64,000 bases of DNA. Source: Sumerlaeia bacterium. GTDB lineage: Bacteria > Sumerlaeota > Sumerlaeia > SLMS01 > JAHLLQ01. Position 1 is the first letter of the stretch, and each line of letters begins with the position of its first letter. Shown here one piece after another: positions 3,202-8,107 of the stretch. The position numbers and the translations under genes were made by a program. The notes beneath the pieces were generated by a model, which had not been told where the DNA came from, made no database searches, and saw only the letters and a list, made by a program, of their open reading frames with translations. The DNA lies in NCBI GenBank assembly GCA_040219255.1, contig JAVJSW010000046.1, forward strand, positions 96,001 through 160,000, read 5' to 3'.

Positions 3202-3328
3202 CGCGATTTGAGAGGCTCCAATTGCCGAAAACCGGCGGAAGATCCGGGCCATTCAAACCCCCGAAACGCTTCAAACGCAAGCCTTCCAATGCCCCGCGTT
3301 TTCCGTTCCCCACTCTTCCGGAAATCGC

Positions 3329-3404
3329 TTGACGGCCAGCGGCCCGGGAAGCACCTTCAAGAAGTCCGGTGGGGAATTCGCCCAAGCCGTGGGGTAACCG
3401 GGGG
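3329..3404 (+). promoter_or_regulatory. Putative dcw promoter with MraZ-box-like TGGGG repeats
   Basis: TTGACG at 3329-3334; TGGGG at 3370 and 3390 and GGGGG at 3400 (10-bp phasing), directly upstream of mraZ; MraZ is known to bind phased TGGG(N) repeats. Confidence 0.6.
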
Positions 3405-3425
3405 AGACGATTTCAGGATGCCTCG

Positions 3426-3902
3426 ATGACTCAACTCTCCGGCATGATCGAATGCTCCGTCGACGAACGCCATCGCGTCGCGATTCCCGCCAAAATGCTC
3501 AAGTGCATGAAGGCCATCGCGGGTGTGGACGAGAGCGATAAGTCGGTCCCCATGACGGTTGTGGTGGGCCTTTCTCTCGGGCGAAACCTCGGGGTTTTTC
3601 CCAAAAACGTGCACGACGATCTCGTCGCGTTCTTGAACGGCAAACCCAAGCATGACACCGATTGGAATCGCATTCGAACCTGGATTATCGGCACCGCGGA
3701 GGAACAGACGCTTGACAAGCAAAATCGAATCCGCATCCCCGCTCTCCTCGCGAAGAAGCTCAAGCTGCAAGGCGAGGTGGTGGTCACCGGAGTAGAGGAC
3801 CACATCGAGTTGATTGGCAAGGACGATTGGGAGCGCGAGTTCGACGAGTACATGGACGAGTTCGAGTCGGTCTTCCAGCGGGCTTCCGGAACGAGGCCCT
3901 GA
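3426..3902 (+). CDS. mraZ: Division/cell wall cluster transcriptional regulator MraZ
   Basis: Two SpoVT/AbrB repeats VDERHRVAIPA and LDKQNRIRIP, GVEDHIEL; first gene before rsmH. Confidence 0.93.
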   Translation: MTQLSGMIECSVDERHRVAIPAKMLKCMKAIAGVDESDKSVPMTVVVGLSLGRNLGVFPKNVHDDLVAFLNGKPKHDTDWNRIRTWIIGTAEEQTLDKQNRIRIPALLAKKLKLQGEVVVTGVEDHIELIGKDDWEREFDEYMDEFESVFQRASGTRP

Positions 3903-3941
3903 CCCTAAGAAATACGAGACTTTTTGCAGGAACGCAGACCC

Positions 3942-4961
3942 ATGATTTCGACGAAGGAGGCTCTCATCGCAACGCGACCGACGCACCACGTGCCCGTCAT
4001 GCTCGACGAGGTCCTCGGCGGACTCGCTCCCGCCCCTGGCTTCGTAGTCGCCGATGGGACCCTCGGCACCGCCGGCCATGGCGTCGCCTTCCTGCGCGCC
4101 CTGCATGGCGCCGGGGTGTTCGTGGGGCTGGATCGCGATCCGGATATGCTCGAGATCGCCCGCGGGCGCATCATGGACCTTTTCGACGCGGAACCGGAAC
4201 TGGCCACCACCCGCGTCATCCTGGCCGCCGAACCCTATGAGAACCTCGGCCGTGTGCTCGCCCGCGAGGGCCTCTCCGGCGCCGACGCCATTTTGCTCGA
4301 CTTGGGCTTCAACAGCTTACAGGTGGACGATCCGGAGCGGGGGTTCAGCTTTACGAACGACGGGCCCTTGGACGGGCGCTACAACGCGAGCGACCCCAAG
4401 TGCCGCACGATCGCGCAATTGGTGAACGAAGCGGCGGAGCTGGACCTGGCCGATTGGATCCGCCTCTATGGCGACGAGCGCTATGCCCGGGCCATCGCCC
4501 GCCGCATCGTGGCCCGCCGTGAGCGCCAGCCTTTCGAGCGCACCGCCGACCTGGCGGAGGTCATCTCCACCGGCTATCCGGTCAAGGAGCGCTACCGCTC
4601 GCACATCCATCCGGCAACGCGTTCCTTCCAGGCGCTGCGTCTGGTGGCGAACGATGAACTGGGCGGGGTGAAGCGCGGTATCGCGAATTGCCTGGGGGCG
4701 CTGGCGCCCGGCGGCAGGCTGGCCGTAATCGCCTACCACAGCGGCGAGGATCGGATCGCCAAGGCTCTCTTCGACGAAGCGGGCGCTCCGAAGGCCGATC
4801 CGTCGAACCCTTATGCGGCGACCACCACCGCCGGGTTGAATTTCGAGTTGGACCGCCGGTCGTCGGCGAAACCGTCTGCCGCCGAGGTCGTGCGCAATCC
4901 GCGCGCCCGCAGCGCCCGGCTACGCCTGATTCGCCGCCGCATCGCGGGAGGTGATCAATGA
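3942..4961 (+). CDS. rsmH: 16S rRNA m4C1402 methyltransferase RsmH
   Basis: HVPVMLDEV, DGTLGTAGH, LDLGFNSLQVDDPERGFSF, HPATRSFQALR, NPRARSARLR. Confidence 0.97.
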   Translation: MISTKEALIATRPTHHVPVMLDEVLGGLAPAPGFVVADGTLGTAGHGVAFLRALHGAGVFVGLDRDPDMLEIARGRIMDLFDAEPELATTRVILAAEPYENLGRVLAREGLSGADAILLDLGFNSLQVDDPERGFSFTNDGPLDGRYNASDPKCRTIAQLVNEAAELDLADWIRLYGDERYARAIARRIVARRERQPFERTADLAEVISTGYPVKERYRSHIHPATRSFQALRLVANDELGGVKRGIANCLGALAPGGRLAVIAYHSGEDRIAKALFDEAGAPKADPSNPYAATTTAGLNFELDRRSSAKPSAAEVVRNPRARSARLRLIRRRIAGGDQ

Positions 4962-5416
4962 GCGCCCGGTCCGCCTCGAATCCCAAGTCCCGCCGCGGTG
5001 CTTGCGCCAAGAAGGCCGCGCCGGTGGAAACGCCCAAGCCGCTGACGGCCGGGCCGCTGTGCGTCATCGCCGCCTTCGCCTCGCTGGCGATCGTGCTCGG
5101 GATGGTTCAGGTGTCGGCGAGTTTCGCCGCCCGGGATTTCGAGATCGAGACGCGGCGTATGCAGGAGTTGGCTTCCGTCGAGCGCGACGAGGTCAAACGG
5201 CTGGAAGCGCGATTGAGCCGTCTGGGGCGCGACGATTCGTTGCGGGCCGTGGCTCAGGAAGAATTGAAGATGGTGGAACCGCCCTCGGAAACGATCGGTC
5301 AAATCGCCATCGATCCCGTCCGCAGGCAGGCGTTGAGCCACGCGGCGGACGAAAAACTTCGAGAACTGGAAGCGGAGCGCGTGGATCTGGCGCGCTTGGC
5401 GAAGGAGGCCGAGTAG
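4958..5416 (+). CDS. ftsL: Cell division protein FtsL-like
   Basis: Basic N-terminus, single TM, coiled coil ending AQEELKM; ATGA overlap with rsmH; canonical position. Confidence 0.75.
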   Translation: MSARSASNPKSRRGACAKKAAPVETPKPLTAGPLCVIAAFASLAIVLGMVQVSASFAARDFEIETRRMQELASVERDEVKRLEARLSRLGRDDSLRAVAQEELKMVEPPSETIGQIAIDPVRRQALSHAADEKLRELEAERVDLARLAKEAE

Positions 5417-5447
5417 AGAAACTAAGGACCCTCAGACAGTCCGGTCT

Positions 5448-5823
5448 TTTCGACAAGATAAGGCCAGACAGGGCTAGCAAGCTGGTGTGATGGAGTTTTT
5501 TCCCGTTCCGTTACAAAGAAAGCGAATGTTCCCGTTCCAGGAGTTGCCTTGTGCCGTTCCGCCGACTCGTTCCCGCTCCGAGACACTCGCGTGTCTCAAC
5601 AGAAAAGGCTCAGTGGAAGTACCCAACCTCCCATTCGAGCTAAAGTCAAAACACCACGGTCTCGTGACCGATCGTTTTTGACCGAGTCGCTCCCGTTCCG
5701 GTTCCCTTTCCCGCTCCGTTCCAGTGTTGTCCATCACTCCAGTGGAAGTTCCGCCGTCCGTCATTTGGCAACCGTCGTTCGGCGACTCTTCCCGCTTCCC
5801 TGTCTGGCCCTATCTTGACGAAA
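5448..5823. ncRNA. Putative large structured non-coding RNA element in the ftsL-ftsI gap
   Basis: 26-bp terminal inverted repeat (24/26; 5448-5473 vs 5798-5823), nested helices 5482-5494/5730-5742 and 5563-5569/5683-5689, internal hairpins, repeated TTCCCG(T/C)TCC linkers; no credible ORF. Confidence 0.5.
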
Positions 5824-5871
5824 CCCGAAGGCTCGCTTCTTGGACCCAACAGTTCGAACGCTCGTCTTGAA

Positions 5872-5911
5872 TACAGTCATCGACTGTAAACACGACTCTC
5901 ATGTCTTTCAA
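5872..5911 (-). promoter_or_regulatory. Candidate antisense sigma70-type promoter overlapped by a palindrome
   Basis: Minus strand TTGAAA (5911-5906)-N17-TACAGT (5888-5883); palindrome TACAGTC-N3-GACTGTA at 5872-5888. Confidence 0.45.
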
Positions 5912-6052
5912 CAAGGGCGGCACGGACGTCAAGGAAGATCTCTGACAAACGGAGTCACCGACCAGGACCGCCACTAAAGCTTCGCCCCAAAAAGCCGTGC
6001 AACCCAAGCCCACGCTCCCTCTCCCGCTGATACCCCGCTGAATTTCCCCAGG

Positions 6053-8107
6053 GTGGCCGACATGTTGAAAAAGCACCATCGCTTCCGCGTTTTACTCTTT
6101 GGCTTCGCCTTCTGCGTCCTCACCGCCATGGTGATCGCTCGGTTGGCGAACCTCCAGATCGCCCGTCACGAGCAGTATCTCGAACGGGCCGATCGCCAGC
6201 AGAACAAGCGCGTGGTGGTGCAAGCTCAACGGGGCGATATCCTCGATCGGCGGGGGAGGCCGCTCGCCAACAGCGCGGGCACATTGTCCCTCTACACGGA
6301 CAATCGCTATCTGCGGCCTCCCCACGCCGACCTGGATCTTGGTGCTCTCGCCTATCAGATCAGCCATTACGCCGACCAGGACCCCGACTCCGTCCGGCGA
6401 CGGCTCGCCCGCGAGGGCGTCGTGCCCGTCGCTCGCCAACTCCCCCCGGAAAACGCGCACCAGATCGGCAACATCCTCGATGACTACGGCATCGATGGCC
6501 GCGGCTATTGGCTCCATCGCGAGAGCAAGCGTCTCTATCCGCGAGGCCTCGCGCCTCACATCATTGGCTTCTGCAGCACCGATGGCGATGGCGACAACAA
6601 GGGGCAGTCCGGCTTGGAACTCGTCTACAATGAGGTCATTCAAGGCCAGCGCATCGAGGCCCGCAGCCGCCGCACCGGCATCAGTCAGACCATGGACCCG
6701 GTCGAGTACGAGGACCTCTTGAGCGCTCAGGGCCACACGCTCCTTCTGACGATCGACTCCGCAATCCAGGAAACCGCTGAGAAGGCTCTCGCCCGCGCCT
6801 GCGAGGAATGGCAGGCGGACTCCGGCGGCGTCGTCGTCCAGGACGCCCGCACCGGCGGTATTCTGACCATGGCGTCCTGGCCGACATTCGACAACCAGGC
6901 CCCCGGCGGCGCCGAAGCCGATTTTCTCCGCAACCGCATGCTCACCGATCCGCTGGAAACGGGCTCGGTGGTGAAACTCTATACCGCCGCCATACTTCTC
7001 GACACGGACAAGATCCGCATCGACTCGCCGGTCGATTGCGAGGGCGGCCGGGCATACATCGACGGACGCCGCGTCAGCGATTCGCCTGGCCATTACCTCG
7101 ACACCGTTCCGTTCTACGAAGTGCTCCGCCACTCCAGCAACATCGGCATCATCAAGACCGCCCTCGCGCTGGAAAACGAGGAGTGGTATCGATACTTGCG
7201 CGACTTCGGCTTTGGCCAGAAAACGGGCATCGATCTCCCCGGCGAGGGTGCCGGCCTGCTTTACCACCCGGACCGCTGGACCAAGTTCAGCCGCACGTCC
7301 CTGCCGATGGGTTACGAGATCGCCCTGACACCGATTCAGATCACCAACGCCATCACGGCGCTGGTCAATGGTGGCGAAGTACTGGAACCGTATGTTGTCG
7401 CCGAAGTCCGCGACGCCCGCGGCAACGTCGTCGAACGCCAGTCCCGCACCGTCGTCCGCCGAGTCATCCGCCCCTCCACCAGCTTGCAGATGCGGTACGT
7501 CATGGAGGATGTCGTGGTGAATGGCACCGGCAAGAAAGCCCAAGTGCCAGGTTTTCGCGTCGGTGGTAAGACCGGCACCACGCGCAAGAGCCACGTTCTG
7601 ACCCACCGCGAGTACATCGCGTCCTTTGCCGGCGCCCTCCCCATCGACGATCCCCGGGTGACGATCTACTGCTACATCGATAATCCCAAGGGTGCCTACT
7701 ATGCCTCGACGGTGGCGGCGCCGCTCTTTCAGGAAGTGGCCCAGGCCAGCGTCGTCCACCTCGGACTGGTGCCCTCGGAAACGGGTGGCGAAAAGGCCGC
7801 GCCGGTGCTGGAGGAGTACTTCGGCAAGTCTACCAAGACGATGGCCAAACCGAAGACTCTCGACGATCTGCCCGATCCGACGGACATGCCCAACTTGACT
7901 GGCCTGACGATGGCGGCGGCGCGCAAGGAACTACCCCCCACCGCCCGCAACGTGCGATTCATGGGCTCCGGGCGCCTGGTCGATCAGGTTCCCGCCGCCG
8001 GAGAAAGTGTGTCCGAATCGACCATGGTGGTCTTGACATTCTCCCCGCCCGCCCCGGCTTATGCGGATGTTTCCCCCTCGAACGCGAAAGGCCGCTCCCG
8101 CCGATGA
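6053..8107 (+). CDS. ftsI: Penicillin-binding protein FtsI/PBP3 with C-terminal PASTA domain
   Basis: N-terminal TM, RGDILDRRG, R.YP, GLE; transpeptidase SVVK / SSN / KTGT; PASTA-like MPNLTGLT...DQVPAAG. Confidence 0.95.
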   Translation: MADMLKKHHRFRVLLFGFAFCVLTAMVIARLANLQIARHEQYLERADRQQNKRVVVQAQRGDILDRRGRPLANSAGTLSLYTDNRYLRPPHADLDLGALAYQISHYADQDPDSVRRRLAREGVVPVARQLPPENAHQIGNILDDYGIDGRGYWLHRESKRLYPRGLAPHIIGFCSTDGDGDNKGQSGLELVYNEVIQGQRIEARSRRTGISQTMDPVEYEDLLSAQGHTLLLTIDSAIQETAEKALARACEEWQADSGGVVVQDARTGGILTMASWPTFDNQAPGGAEADFLRNRMLTDPLETGSVVKLYTAAILLDTDKIRIDSPVDCEGGRAYIDGRRVSDSPGHYLDTVPFYEVLRHSSNIGIIKTALALENEEWYRYLRDFGFGQKTGIDLPGEGAGLLYHPDRWTKFSRTSLPMGYEIALTPIQITNAITALVNGGEVLEPYVVAEVRDARGNVVERQSRTVVRRVIRPSTSLQMRYVMEDVVVNGTGKKAQVPGFRVGGKTGTTRKSHVLTHREYIASFAGALPIDDPRVTIYCYIDNPKGAYYASTVAAPLFQEVAQASVVHLGLVPSETGGEKAAPVLEEYFGKSTKTMAKPKTLDDLPDPTDMPNLTGLTMAAARKELPPTARNVRFMGSGRLVDQVPAAGESVSESTMVVLTFSPPAPAYADVSPSNAKGRSRR

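What the first reader, a model, noticed from the sequence alone, without database searches (positions are those of the whole stretch)
5448..5823. Large nested structured RNA-like element embedded in the dcw operon, with CsrB-like GGA density on the minus strand
Seen: ftsL and ftsI, normally closely spaced, are separated by ~640 bp with no credible ORF. A 26-bp helix (5448-5473/5798-5823, 24/26) closes a 376-nt unit. Inside are nested helices 5482-5494/5730-5742, 5563-5569/5683-5689 and 5645-5651/5676-5682, hairpins 5580-5597 and 5657-5670, and a direct repeat CAGTGGAAGT (5611, 5740). The linkers are repeated TTCCCG(T/C)TCC units. I count 20 TCC on +, i.e. 20 GGA on the minus strand (GGAACGGGA, GGAGCGGGA). 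Segment 5684-5690 can alternatively pair with 5782-5788, which suggests switching. Known: CsrB/RsmZ sponges are GGA-rich sRNAs, CsrB being of similar length. Inference: an undescribed ncRNA, either an antisense protein sponge or a cis-regulatory insert controlling ftsI-mur expression. Wobble pairs do not settle the strand.
Basis: partly seen in the sequence, partly recalled or inferred. Interest (0 to 1): 0.85.

Follow-up and report, generated by a model that had tools for sequence, protein, structure and literature searches.

The report
Conserved structured RNA in division operon
The unusually long gap between the cell-division genes ftsL and ftsI holds an undescribed, evolutionarily conserved folded RNA element studded with short pyrimidine repeats; it is probably cut out of the operon's messenger RNA and probably binds a factor that is still unknown.

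Summary
The element is single-copy in its genome and has no Rfam match.

The key new result comes from synteny. A 297-909 nt ftsL-ftsI gap occurs in all 23 of 30 related loci where ftsL could be placed. In 40 of 57 loci from 9 families of one class, the gap holds the same architecture:
- a 12-40 bp closing helix with different sequences in different genera;
- arrays of G-Y-U-C-C-N hexamers in a 6-nt register inside the helix.

On 20 aligned sequences the helix has 21 pairs, 18 of them with compensatory changes. It is 90.1% paired, against 72.6% in shuffles and at most 48.5% when slid. No ORF is conserved.

The CsrB reading fails. CsrA is not found in the own genome or in 29 genomes that carry the element.

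Best reading: a sense-strand spacer RNA of the dcw operon. RNase III probably excises it at the long helix, and it displays a multivalent single-stranded pyrimidine array for an unidentified binder. The strand (sense favoured: G.U 33 vs A.C 14) and the function are inferred. No RNA data exist.

The parts
4958..5416 (+). FtsL-like ORF, upstream neighbour. The element begins 31 nt after its stop codon.
   Evidence: ORF list. No Pfam hit. tblastn relatives between rsmH and ftsI in 23 of 30 loci. Atlas neighbours carry FtsL/DivIC in a minority of members (lead only).
5448..5473 (+). P1 5' arm of the closing helix. The core AAGGCCAGR is shared with relatives.
   Evidence: I1, 24 of 26. MFE fold. 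Homologous arms in 40 loci. Covariation on alignment A1.
5798..5823 (+). P1 3' arm of the closing helix. The core YCTGGCC is shared with relatives.
   Evidence: Same as the 5' arm.
5481..5494 (+). P1b, 5' side: inner extension of the closing helix. Pairs with 5730-5743.
   Evidence: I3, 12 of 13. MFE fold. A G/U-rich segment follows the 5' arm in several relatives (alignment, seen by eye).
5730..5743 (+). P1b, 3' side.
5498..5581 (+). Array A: six YUCC(C)G units at 5500, 5506, 5529, 5557, 5570 and 5576. Mostly unpaired in the fold.
   Evidence: (D1-D3). 6-nt register across 40 elements.
5563..5689 (+). Central domain, specific to this lineage. Contains helix 5563-5569/5683-5689, hairpins 5580-5597 and 5657-5670, and helices 5607-5619/5628-5641 and 5645-5651/5676-5682.
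   Evidence: Not alignable with relatives.
5689..5723 (+). Array B: five consecutive units at 5690, 5696, 5702, 5708 and 5714, exactly 6 nt apart.
   Evidence: Register.
5744..5797 (+). 3' hairpin next to P1 (GGAAG/CUUCC and CGCCG/CGGCG), followed by CUCUUCCCGCUUCC. In relatives this position holds a hairpin capped by GCU-UGCC-GGC or CUUCCCGG.
   Evidence: The U.G pair of the cap is present in 13 of 13 aligned sequences. The window's own version differs.
5922..5939 (+). Conserved box ACGGACGTCAAGGAAGAT downstream of the element. Relatives have cAGACCGTCAAsnACGAA. Its reverse complement contains TTGACG.
   Evidence: f1 loci L006-L009, L012, L029; f2 loci L020, L021. Compared with the mraZ promoter-like TTGAC boxes. 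Role unknown.
5971..6048 (+). C-rich, G-poor leader directly upstream of ftsI (36 C, 11 G in 78 nt).
   Evidence: Only 0.36% of the genome's 78-nt windows reach this C-G excess.
6053..8107 (+). ftsI (class B PBP with a PASTA domain), downstream neighbour. The likely start is the ATG at 6062.
   Evidence: The Atlas record starts at residue 4.

Best explanation
The ftsL-ftsI spacer encodes a conserved structured RNA, about 376 nt here and 195-453 nt in relatives. It is transcribed on the sense strand as part of the dcw (mraZ-rsmH-ftsL-ftsI-murE...) messenger RNA.

A long, nearly perfect closing helix (P1, 12-40 bp) brings its two ends together. A duplex of this length is a substrate for RNase III, which the genome encodes. 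I infer that P1 is cleaved. Cleavage would separate the upstream and downstream halves of the operon transcript. It would also release, or at least insulate, the enclosed RNA.

The enclosed RNA has little conserved internal structure. It always carries arrays of G-Y-U-C-C-N hexamers in a 6-nt register that have no complementary partner in cis. I read these as a multivalent single-stranded binding platform for an unidentified sequence-specific factor, most likely an oligomeric protein. The binder is not CsrA, an RRM protein or Ro, and Hfq was not found in the own genome.

Because the RNA is made one-for-one with dcw transcripts, it could titrate or recruit that factor in proportion to expression of the division genes.

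Shown: the anatomy, conservation, covariation, register, absence of coding and absence of CsrA. Inferred: the sense strand, RNase III cleavage, protein binding and any regulatory outcome.
For: 1. Conservation by synteny. The gap is 297-909 nt in 23 of 23 loci with an ftsL hit (of 30 loci examined).
2. Long-range stem. It scores above the maximum of 342 shuffles in 24 of 57 loci and above their 99th percentile in 28 of 57. A further 12 loci have shorter perfect stems with a homologous core, (G/A)CCAGAYCGGC. That makes 40 of 57 loci on my hand-made list, in families f1, f2, f4, f5, f7, f8, f12, f13 and f16.
3. Covariation of P1 on 20 order-level sequences: 21 pairs, 18 with changes on both sides. 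90.1% of cells are paired against 72.6% in shuffles (0 of 500 reach it) and at most 48.5% when the partner is slid by 1-3 columns.
4. Hexamer register. YTCC start-to-start spacing is 6 nt in 88 of 359 intervals against about 2 in shuffles, with further peaks at 12-13 and 18-19 nt.
5. Phased pairs. YTCCNNYTCC occurs 112 times on the sense strand against 8 on the antisense strand in 39.6 kb upstream of ftsI. The genome background is 0.22 per kb. At least 1 pair is present in 45 of 57 loci and at least 2 in 33 of 57.
6. Not coding. Only 7 weak cross-genus peptide hits at E<1e-3, on both strands. The 83 same-genus hits fall in all frames, which is DNA similarity.
7. Sense strand:
   - G.U 33 against A.C 14 in P1 defined without regard to strand (40 loci), or 29 against 12 with one locus per genus pair.
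   - Repeat positions are less paired than the rest in 39 of 40 elements on + and in 28 of 40 on -.
   - The element sits inside a co-oriented operon, and no TTGAC-type promoter was seen on + between the element and ftsI (by eye).
8. RNase III (PF14622) is present in the genome.
9. The array is unique in the genome, as expected for a single dedicated locus.
Against: - No transcript data of any kind exist. No RNA run holds the locus (this says nothing about expression).
- Strand evidence is modest. Whole-element folding energy is lower on the minus strand in 23 of 40 elements. Structure-conservation indices differ little between the strands, with + higher in 7 of 10 groups.
- A conserved box whose reverse complement reads TTGACGG lies 35-100 nt beyond P1. 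It could be an antisense -35 element.
- RNase III cleavage is inferred from helix length alone.
- No binding protein was identified. The double unit TTCCCGYTCCCG is not enriched elsewhere in 57 genomes compared with the backwards control, so no regulon of targets is visible.
- Strictly Watson-Crick local stems inside the element are no more frequent than in shuffles (422 paired positions against 2207 in 5 sets of shuffles). The interior is therefore largely unstructured. That fits a display loop but also fits a passive spacer.
- The list of 40 loci was chosen by eye.
Confidence: 0.45

Rival explanations
1. Cis-acting attenuator. The untranslated, pyrimidine-rich interior acts only in cis, setting how much transcription or messenger RNA reaches ftsI-murE. 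One route is as a Rho loading region; another is as a site where a bound factor blocks or permits read-through. P1 would serve to fold or insulate it. No trans-acting product is made.
For: - Rho is encoded (PF07497).
- A 636-nt untranslated stretch inside an operon is exposed to Rho, which is established knowledge of polarity.
- The arrays are C-rich and largely unpaired.
- The strongest C>G segment of the spacer lies just upstream of ftsI (5971-6048).
- No promoter-like TTGAC box was seen on the + strand between the element and ftsI, so ftsI probably depends on read-through.
Against: - The conserved unit has a G every 6 nt. G is its best-conserved periodic position (0.64).
- The C-G excess of the arrays is moderate: the median maximum is 15 per 78 nt, about 1.7 sd of genome windows. 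Rho needs only YC dinucleotides in G-poor RNA.
- Sequence-specific hexamers kept across a class point to a specific binder.
- A long covarying closing helix is not a feature of known rut sites.
Confidence: 0.2
2. Antisense RNA. The functional transcript is the minus strand. It would start from the conserved TTGACGG box downstream of P1 and carry (C)GGGAAC repeats. It would act as an antisense regulator or as a GGA-type sponge, which is the reader's CsrB idea.
For: - The box cAGACCGTCAAg is conserved in f1 and part of f2. Its reverse complement matches the -35-like cTTGAC(G/C) found upstream of mraZ in 10 of 10 genomes examined, including an 11-nt identity within one genome.
- Its position, 35-100 nt outside P1, would place a start just before the element.
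- The minus strand folds more stably in 23 of 40 elements (z = -9.87 here).
- One promoter-like and several terminator-like matches lie on the minus strand in the window.
Against: - The hexamers 17 nt after the box (GATTGA, GTTTCT, GTTTGT, TTTCCT, CGAAAT...) do not fit the NANNTT seen at that distance in the mraZ promoters (read by eye).
- The minus-strand terminator-like hairpin of the window is not seen in relatives (by eye).
- G.U against A.C favours the plus strand. The 3' hairpin cap cannot form on the minus strand.
- For the CsrA version specifically: there is no CsrA in the own genome or in 29 genomes that carry the element, and no Rfam CsrB/Rsm match.
Confidence: 0.1
3. DNA-level array. 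The hexamers, read on the minus strand as CGGGAAC, are binding sites in double-stranded DNA for MraZ, the operon's own regulator. They would give MraZ a second point of control in front of ftsI.
For: - mraZ is the first gene of this cluster.
- The putative MraZ boxes upstream of mraZ here and in 9 relatives are (G/C)(T/G)GGGGAA-like direct repeats. They resemble CGGGAAC.
- A single TTCCGTTCCCC copy also sits upstream of the mraZ promoter-like box (window 3302-3312).
Against: - The promoter boxes repeat every 10 nt, while the arrays repeat every 6 and 12-13 nt. That puts successive sites on different faces of the DNA.
- In f2 genomes the promoter boxes are of the GTGGT type, yet the hexamer stays GTTCCC, so the two do not change together.
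- MraZ is found in 48 of 57 genomes, including families without arrays (f14, f17), so its distribution does not discriminate.
- A DNA array does not explain compensatory changes in a helix whose arms lie about 300 nt apart.
Confidence: 0.07
4. Mobile-element remnant or neutral spacer with no function (a MITE-like foldback).
For: - Terminal inverted repeats with a fast-evolving interior. Identity is 53% even within one genus.
Against: - One copy in the genome.
- The same position and orientation across 9 families.
- The arms differ between genera yet stay complementary.
- The repeat register is maintained.
Confidence: 0.02

Closest known systems
CsrB/RsmZ-type protein-sponge RNAs
   Same: Many copies of one short motif sit in a scaffold whose sequence and copy number drift quickly between relatives. 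There is a single dedicated locus per genome.
   Different: - The motif is a pyrimidine hexamer (G-Y-U-C-C-N) in a 6-nt register on the sense strand, not GGA in hairpin loops.
- There is no cognate CsrA.
- It is embedded between two genes of an operon and closed by a 12-40 bp helix.
- There is no Rfam match.
Repeat-binding sites of ring-shaped RNA-binding proteins (TRAP with its (G/U)AG repeats in the trp leader; recalled, not from a call)
   Same: Short repeats occur at a fixed 5-6 nt register in single-stranded RNA, in variable number. This suggests one repeat per subunit of an oligomer.
   Different: The motif and context differ. No TRAP-like protein was sought or found, and the arrays are split into blocks.
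RNase III processing stems that bracket RNAs inside polycistronic transcripts (rRNA operon stems, phage T7 early messengers; recalled)
   Same: A long-range duplex of 20 bp or more is formed by sequences that flank an RNA within a longer transcript. RNase III is encoded.
   Different: The enclosed RNA is not rRNA or tRNA. Cleavage has not been shown.
UpsM, the sRNA from the extended 5' leader of the dcw cluster in Rhodobacteraceae (PMC5089854, abstract read)
   Same: A lineage-specific non-coding RNA physically joined to the dcw operon transcript.
   Different: - UpsM lies upstream of mraZ and arises by Rho-independent termination and RNase E cleavage with Hfq.
- This element lies between ftsL and ftsI, has no terminator, and Hfq was not found in the genome.
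mraW RNA motif, RF01746 (Actinomycetales; table in PMC2864571)
   Same: A conserved RNA motif associated with the dcw cluster.
   Different: It lies in the 5' UTR of mraW in Actinobacteria. No match to it here or in 20 relatives' loci.
Y RNAs bound by Ro/Rsr (recalled)
   Same: The 5' and 3' ends form a long stem with a conserved core, closing a pyrimidine-rich loop.
   Different: No TROVE-domain protein in the genome. No Rfam Y RNA/YrlA match. The element is three to four times larger and lies inside an operon.

Membership tests
CsrB/RsmX/Y/Z sponge RNAs | Matches an Rfam covariance model of the family | tested here: not met
   No such match at E<=10 in window 4000-8000. No match at gathering score in 20 relatives' loci.
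CsrB/RsmX/Y/Z sponge RNAs | A cognate CsrA/RsmA protein is encoded in the genome | tested here: not met
   PF02599 is not found in the own genome (92% complete). It is in 0 of 31 genomes of f1, f2, f4, f5 and f7. 29 genomes on my element list have no match. The control genomes E. coli, B. subtilis and T. maritima were detected.
CsrB/RsmX/Y/Z sponge RNAs | GGA motifs presented in the loops of short hairpins on the transcribed strand | tested here: inconclusive
   On the minus strand, repeat positions are only slightly less paired than the rest (0.47 against 0.42 unpaired; higher in 28 of 40 elements). The best-conserved periodic base is the one complementary to sense G, not the GGA. The transcribed strand is unknown.
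MITE / foldback transposon | Multiple dispersed copies in a genome | tested here: not met
   One BLAST match in the own genome. The repeat array is unique in the genome.
MITE / foldback transposon | Variable insertion sites with target-site duplications | tested here: not met
   Always between ftsL and ftsI in the same orientation. Target-site duplications were not looked for.
mraW motif (RF01746) and other described dcw-linked RNAs | Match to the family model | tested here: not met
Y RNA / Ro system | A TROVE-domain Ro protein is encoded, and the RNA matches a Y RNA model | tested here: not met
   PF05731 not found (the controls D. radiodurans and B. thetaiotaomicron were detected). No Rfam match.
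RNase III processing stem | A continuous duplex of about 20 bp or more in a transcript, and RNase III encoded | tested here: met
   24 of 26 pairs here. The median arm is 22 nt over 40 loci. PF14622 is present. Cleavage itself is not testable with these tools.
Rho utilisation (rut) site | About 80 nt of C-rich, G-poor, unstructured RNA | tested here: inconclusive
   The arrays are unpaired but have a G every 6 nt. The maximum C-G excess is 15 per 78 nt in the element, against a genome 99th percentile of 21. The segment 5971-6048 outside the element reaches 25.
MraZ operator | Direct repeats of the MraZ box at a 10-nt period | tested here: not met
   The period is 6 and 12-13 nt. The promoter boxes in 10 genomes repeat every 10 nt.
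Protein-coding gene / small ORF | A reading frame conserved between genera | tested here: not met
   No Pfam hit for the two longest ORFs.

The most novel reading that the evidence does not exclude
This is a new class of large bacterial non-coding RNA that is excised from the division-and-cell-wall operon. A long processing helix releases a stable RNA of about 200-450 nt. Its hexamer arrays (G-Y-U-C-C-N, 6-nt register) wrap or titrate an oligomeric RNA-binding protein of a kind not yet described in bacteria. The clade has the best-developed form of the RNA precisely where CsrA and RRM proteins are missing (Hfq was sought, and not found, only in the own genome). The RNA would thereby couple the level of dcw transcription to a post-transcriptional regulon.

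A bolder sub-variant (about 0.04 on its own): the repeats UCCCGU and the downstream box CCGUCA imitate the 16S rRNA site GCCCGUCA (sequence recalled, not from a call). That site's C1402 is methylated by RsmH, the enzyme encoded two genes upstream. The RNA would then be an RsmH-binding decoy, which could explain why an rRNA methyltransferase sits in the division operon.
Probability: 0.25. Interest if true: 0.85.

Novelty: new variant of a known kind. Interest (0 to 1): 0.72.

Why it matters
The dcw operon is one of the most conserved and most studied gene clusters in bacteria, and ftsL and ftsI are normally adjacent. In one whole class of a little-known phylum, a 200-450 nt structured RNA has been kept between them. 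Its closing helix is maintained by compensatory changes, and its repeat array has a strict 6-nt register.

If it is excised and binds a factor, it would be a new family of multivalent RNA. Its expression would be tied directly to the division genes, and it would point to an unrecognised RNA-binding regulator in lineages that lack CsrA and RRM proteins (Hfq was not found in the own genome either).

Even in the minimal reading, as a processing and insulation element, it shows that the operon's expression is split at this point. The motif is well enough defined for an RNA family model, and it makes concrete, cheap predictions: transcript ends inside P1, and a protein pulled down by the hexamer array.

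Tried and rejected
- BLASTN of the spacer against 40 relatives found only the own genome. The element is too diverged for DNA search, and synteny was needed.
Two Atlas look-ups gave no usable taxonomy.
- Sequencing runs: no RNA holder is listed.
- MAFFT plus RNAalifold on whole elements predicted only P1. On the 3' parts it predicted nothing or only the 3-bp cap. The flanking stems exist in single-sequence folds but in shifted registers, so their covariation could not be counted.
- A strand-neutral search for local Watson-Crick stems was uninformative: 6 G.T against 9 A.C, and no excess over shuffles.
- Structure-conservation index on the two strands gave no decision.
- I built no covariance model. 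The element exceeds the 400-column and calibration limits, and a hand-made alignment cannot be supplied.
- The 12-mer TTCCCGYTCCCG is not enriched in 57 genomes compared with its backwards control, so no regulon is visible.
- A second small array at G000:C70:13096-13129 lies upstream of an ORF without a Pfam hit. This led nowhere.
- Candidate binders tested by presence:
  - CsrA, RRM_1 (0 of 18 in f1, f2 and f4), Hfq and TROVE were not found where the element is best developed.
  - MraZ is found too widely in these genomes to discriminate.
- Literature: five searches found no description of an ftsL-ftsI spacer RNA. I read passages of PMC12283558, PMC5737381 and PMC2864571 and the abstract of PMC5089854. 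Supplementary tables of the motif-discovery papers were not seen and might list a related motif.
Full report
**Context.** The window is contig C46:96001-160000 of a 5.35-Mb, 63.6% G+C draft genome (83 contigs, 92% complete). The region holds these genes, all on the + strand:
- mraZ, with a Pfam MraZ match at window 3687-3884;
- rsmH, 3924-4961;
- an FtsL-like ORF, 4958-5416;
- a 636-nt gap;
- ftsI, 6053-8107 (transpeptidase, PBP dimerisation and PASTA domains);
- murE.

The FtsL-like ORF has no Pfam hit. Its assignment rests on its position, on tblastn relatives at the same position and on Atlas neighbours (a lead only). The genome belongs to a small phylum: only 57 genomes of at least 85% completeness, in 18 families, were available. 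I could not name it.

The count of 20 TCC in 5448-5823 is right.
- Both strands fold far better than dinucleotide shuffles: z = -6.58 on + and -9.87 on -.
- All the nested helices appear in the + strand minimum-free-energy fold.
- TCC density alone is only moderately unusual (0.097% of genome windows reach 20; the maximum is 28).
- The cluster of the specific unit is unique in the genome (8 per 250 nt; no other window reaches 7). That unit was defined from this locus.
- No Rfam family matches here at E<=10, apart from eight sub-threshold matches of the kind the tool calls mostly chance, none inside 5448-5823. None matches at gathering score in 20 relatives' loci.
- The element is single-copy and BLASTN finds nothing in 40 relatives.

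**Synteny shows it is conserved.** I located FtsI in relatives and placed RsmH, FtsL and FtsI by tblastn in 30 loci. RsmH was found in 27 of 30 and FtsL in 23 of 30. In all 23 loci with an FtsL hit, the FtsL-FtsI gap is 297-909 nt. Reading the gaps showed a shared plan:
- a 5' arm with core AAGGCCAGR;
- runs of GTTCCC/GTTCCCGYTCC;
- a 3' arm with core YCTGGCC;
- in part of f1 and f2, a box cAGACCGTCAAsnACGAA further downstream.

I fetched 29 more upstream regions and analysed 27 of them. One was too short (L061) and one could not be anchored (L063). That gave 57 loci in all.

**The closing helix.**
- A strand-neutral search for the best long-range ungapped stem (Watson-Crick pairs score positive; G.T, A.C and all else score equally negative) gave a stem above the maximum of 342 shuffles in 24 of 57 loci. 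It was above their 99th percentile in 28 of 57.
- Twelve further loci, mainly in f7, f5 and f16, have perfect stems of 12-16 bp built on a homologous core ((G/A)CCAGAYCGGC, GCCAGACTGAC). In these, changes in one arm are matched in the other.
- From those outputs I chose 40 loci by eye as carriers: f1 11, f2 9, f4 2, f5 2, f7 9, f8 1, f12 1, f13 2, f16 3.
- Over these 40, element length is 195-453 nt (median 307) and arm length is 12-40 nt (median 22).
- Of the other 17 loci, nine have hexamer runs but no convincing long stem (L026, L033, L050, L053-L056, L062, L065). L031 has one phased pair and no convincing stem. Seven have no phased pair at all (L028, L044, L045, L057-L060).
- In L059 and L060 an uninterrupted reading frame appears to run up to about 50 nt before ftsI (by eye, not checked).
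- On a MAFFT alignment of 20 order-level elements, RNAalifold predicts exactly this helix: 21 pairs, 18 with compensatory changes.
- Counting on that structure gives 90.1% of cells paired, against 72.6% in shuffles (0 of 500 reach it). It gives at most 48.5% when the 3' partner is slid by 1-3 columns, a control that keeps relatedness.
- A.C oppositions cluster at three adjacent positions (columns 24-26, 7 of 13). This hints at a conserved weak spot in the helix.

**The interior.**
- It diverges fast: 53-96% identity within genera and about 35% within families. It is not alignable beyond P1.
- Strict local stems are no more common than in shuffles.
- There is no conserved reading frame. Peptide hits occur in all frames and on both strands between same-genus pairs. 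Only 7 weak hits link different genera.
- What is kept is the repeat. The spacing of successive YTCC is 6 nt in 88 of 359 intervals (shuffles about 2), with secondary peaks at 12-13 and 18-19 nt. The unit is G(0.64)-Y-U-C-C-N.
- The phased pair YTCCNNYTCC occurs 112 times on the sense strand against 8 on the antisense strand, in 39.6 kb upstream of ftsI. The genome background is 0.22 per kb.
- The repeats have almost no complementary partner in cis (4 GGA in the window's element). They are predicted to be less paired than the rest in 39 of 40 elements on the + strand.
- In f2 and part of f1, a hairpin next to the 3' arm is capped by GCU-UGCC-GGC or CUUCCCGG. The U.G pair of the cap is present in 13 of 13 aligned sequences. 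The window's own version differs: there the CUCUUCCCG segment lies on the 3' side of a stem.

**Which strand?** There are no RNA data.

For the sense strand:
- G.U 33 against A.C 14 in strand-neutrally defined P1 helices, or 29 against 12 with one locus per genus pair. The naive binomial p is about 0.01. Relatives are not independent, and transcription-linked mutation bias could contribute.
- The hairpin cap can form only on +.
- The operon context.
- I saw no TTGAC-type promoter on + between the element and ftsI, so ftsI probably depends on read-through.

For the antisense strand:
- Whole-element folding energy is lower on the minus strand in 23 of 40 elements. This is expected for the G-richer strand.
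- The downstream box has the reverse complement TTGACGG. That equals the -35-like box upstream of mraZ in 10 of 10 genomes examined. However, the hexamer 17 nt further on does not fit the NANNTT seen in those promoters.

I put the sense strand at roughly three to one.

**Function.**
- The CsrA-sponge idea fails on its defining partner.
- RRM proteins are absent from the whole order (0 of 18). Hfq and Ro were not found in the own genome.
- Rho and RNase III are present.
- A 22-40 bp near-perfect duplex in a messenger RNA is, by established knowledge of RNase III, likely to be cut. I therefore read P1 as a processing stem that splits the operon transcript and releases or insulates the enclosed RNA.
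- A strict 6-nt register of a specific hexamer, in variable copy number and unpaired, is what repeat-binding oligomeric proteins recognise. I read the arrays as a multivalent binding platform for an unknown factor.
- A purely Rho-based reading is weakened by the conserved G in every unit and by the only moderate C-G excess.
- A DNA-level MraZ reading is weakened by the wrong period, by the lack of co-variation with the promoter boxes and by the RNA-type covariation of P1.

None of these steps is shown experimentally.

**Comparison and novelty.** The element works most like a sponge or display RNA of the CsrB kind joined to an RNase III processing stem, but it fails membership of every family tested (see the membership table).

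Two RNAs linked to the dcw cluster are described. Both lie in the 5' leader and are unrelated:
- UpsM in Rhodobacteraceae (PMC5089854, abstract);
- the actinobacterial mraW motif (PMC2864571, table).

Five literature searches found nothing on an ftsL-ftsI spacer RNA.

I rate it a new variant of a known kind. It is real and conserved with high confidence (about 0.9). Its mechanism is known with moderate confidence only.

Noticed in passing
window 3329-3409: Promoter-like TTGACG (3329-3334), then 17 nt, then CACCTT (3352-3357) upstream of mraZ. It is followed by three G-rich direct repeats: GTGGGG at 3369, GTGGGG at 3389 and CGGGGG at 3399. In 9 relatives the same layout recurs, with (G/T)TGGGGAA-type boxes every 10 nt. 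These are probably the Pmra promoter and the MraZ operator of this phylum, and the -10 element appears to be NANNTT.
   Followed up: partly
window 5922-5939; relatives L006-L009, L012, L029, L020, L021: A conserved box cAGACCGTCAAsnACGAA lies 35-100 nt downstream of the closing helix and 45-200 nt upstream of ftsI. Its reverse complement carries TTGACGG, like the mraZ promoter box. Its role is unknown: an antisense -35 element, a regulator site or an RNA motif.
   Followed up: partly
window 5971-6048: The segment directly upstream of ftsI is strongly C-rich and G-poor (36 C, 11 G in 78 nt; top 0.36% of genome windows). It lies outside the structured element and is a candidate Rho loading region or an unstructured leader.
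   Followed up: no
G000:C70:13096-13129 (locus L066 about 1597-1630): A second, short run of the same kind of unit (GCTCCCGCTCCTCCCGTTCCTGTTCCCGCTCCTG) sits about 100 nt upstream of a 139-aa ORF without a Pfam hit, in a C-rich intergenic stretch.
   Followed up: partly
phylum-wide: The order that contains the window (f1, f2, f4) lacks detectable CsrA and RRM_1 proteins: 0 of 18 genomes each, plus the own genome. Hfq was not found in the own genome. Other families of the class have CsrA, RRM proteins or both. The spacer element is best developed where these global RNA-binding proteins are missing.
   Followed up: partly
window 5864-5896: A hairpin-forming inverted repeat GTCTTGAATACAGTC / GACTGTAAACACGAC (12 of 15) lies between the element and the conserved box. 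It overlaps the only sigma-70-like match of the region, which is on the minus strand (TTGAAA-17-TACAGT).
   Followed up: no
loci L059, L060 (two genomes of genus g28, family f13): The FtsI homologue found there appears to be preceded by an uninterrupted reading frame instead of an FtsL-spacer arrangement (by eye, frame not checked). The dcw order is therefore probably rearranged, or the hit is a paralogue.
   Followed up: no
alignment A1 columns 24-26 with 590-592: A.C/C.A oppositions in the closing helix cluster at three adjacent positions just outside the GGCC core (7 of the 13 A.C cells). This may be a conserved non-canonical spot in the helix.
   Followed up: no
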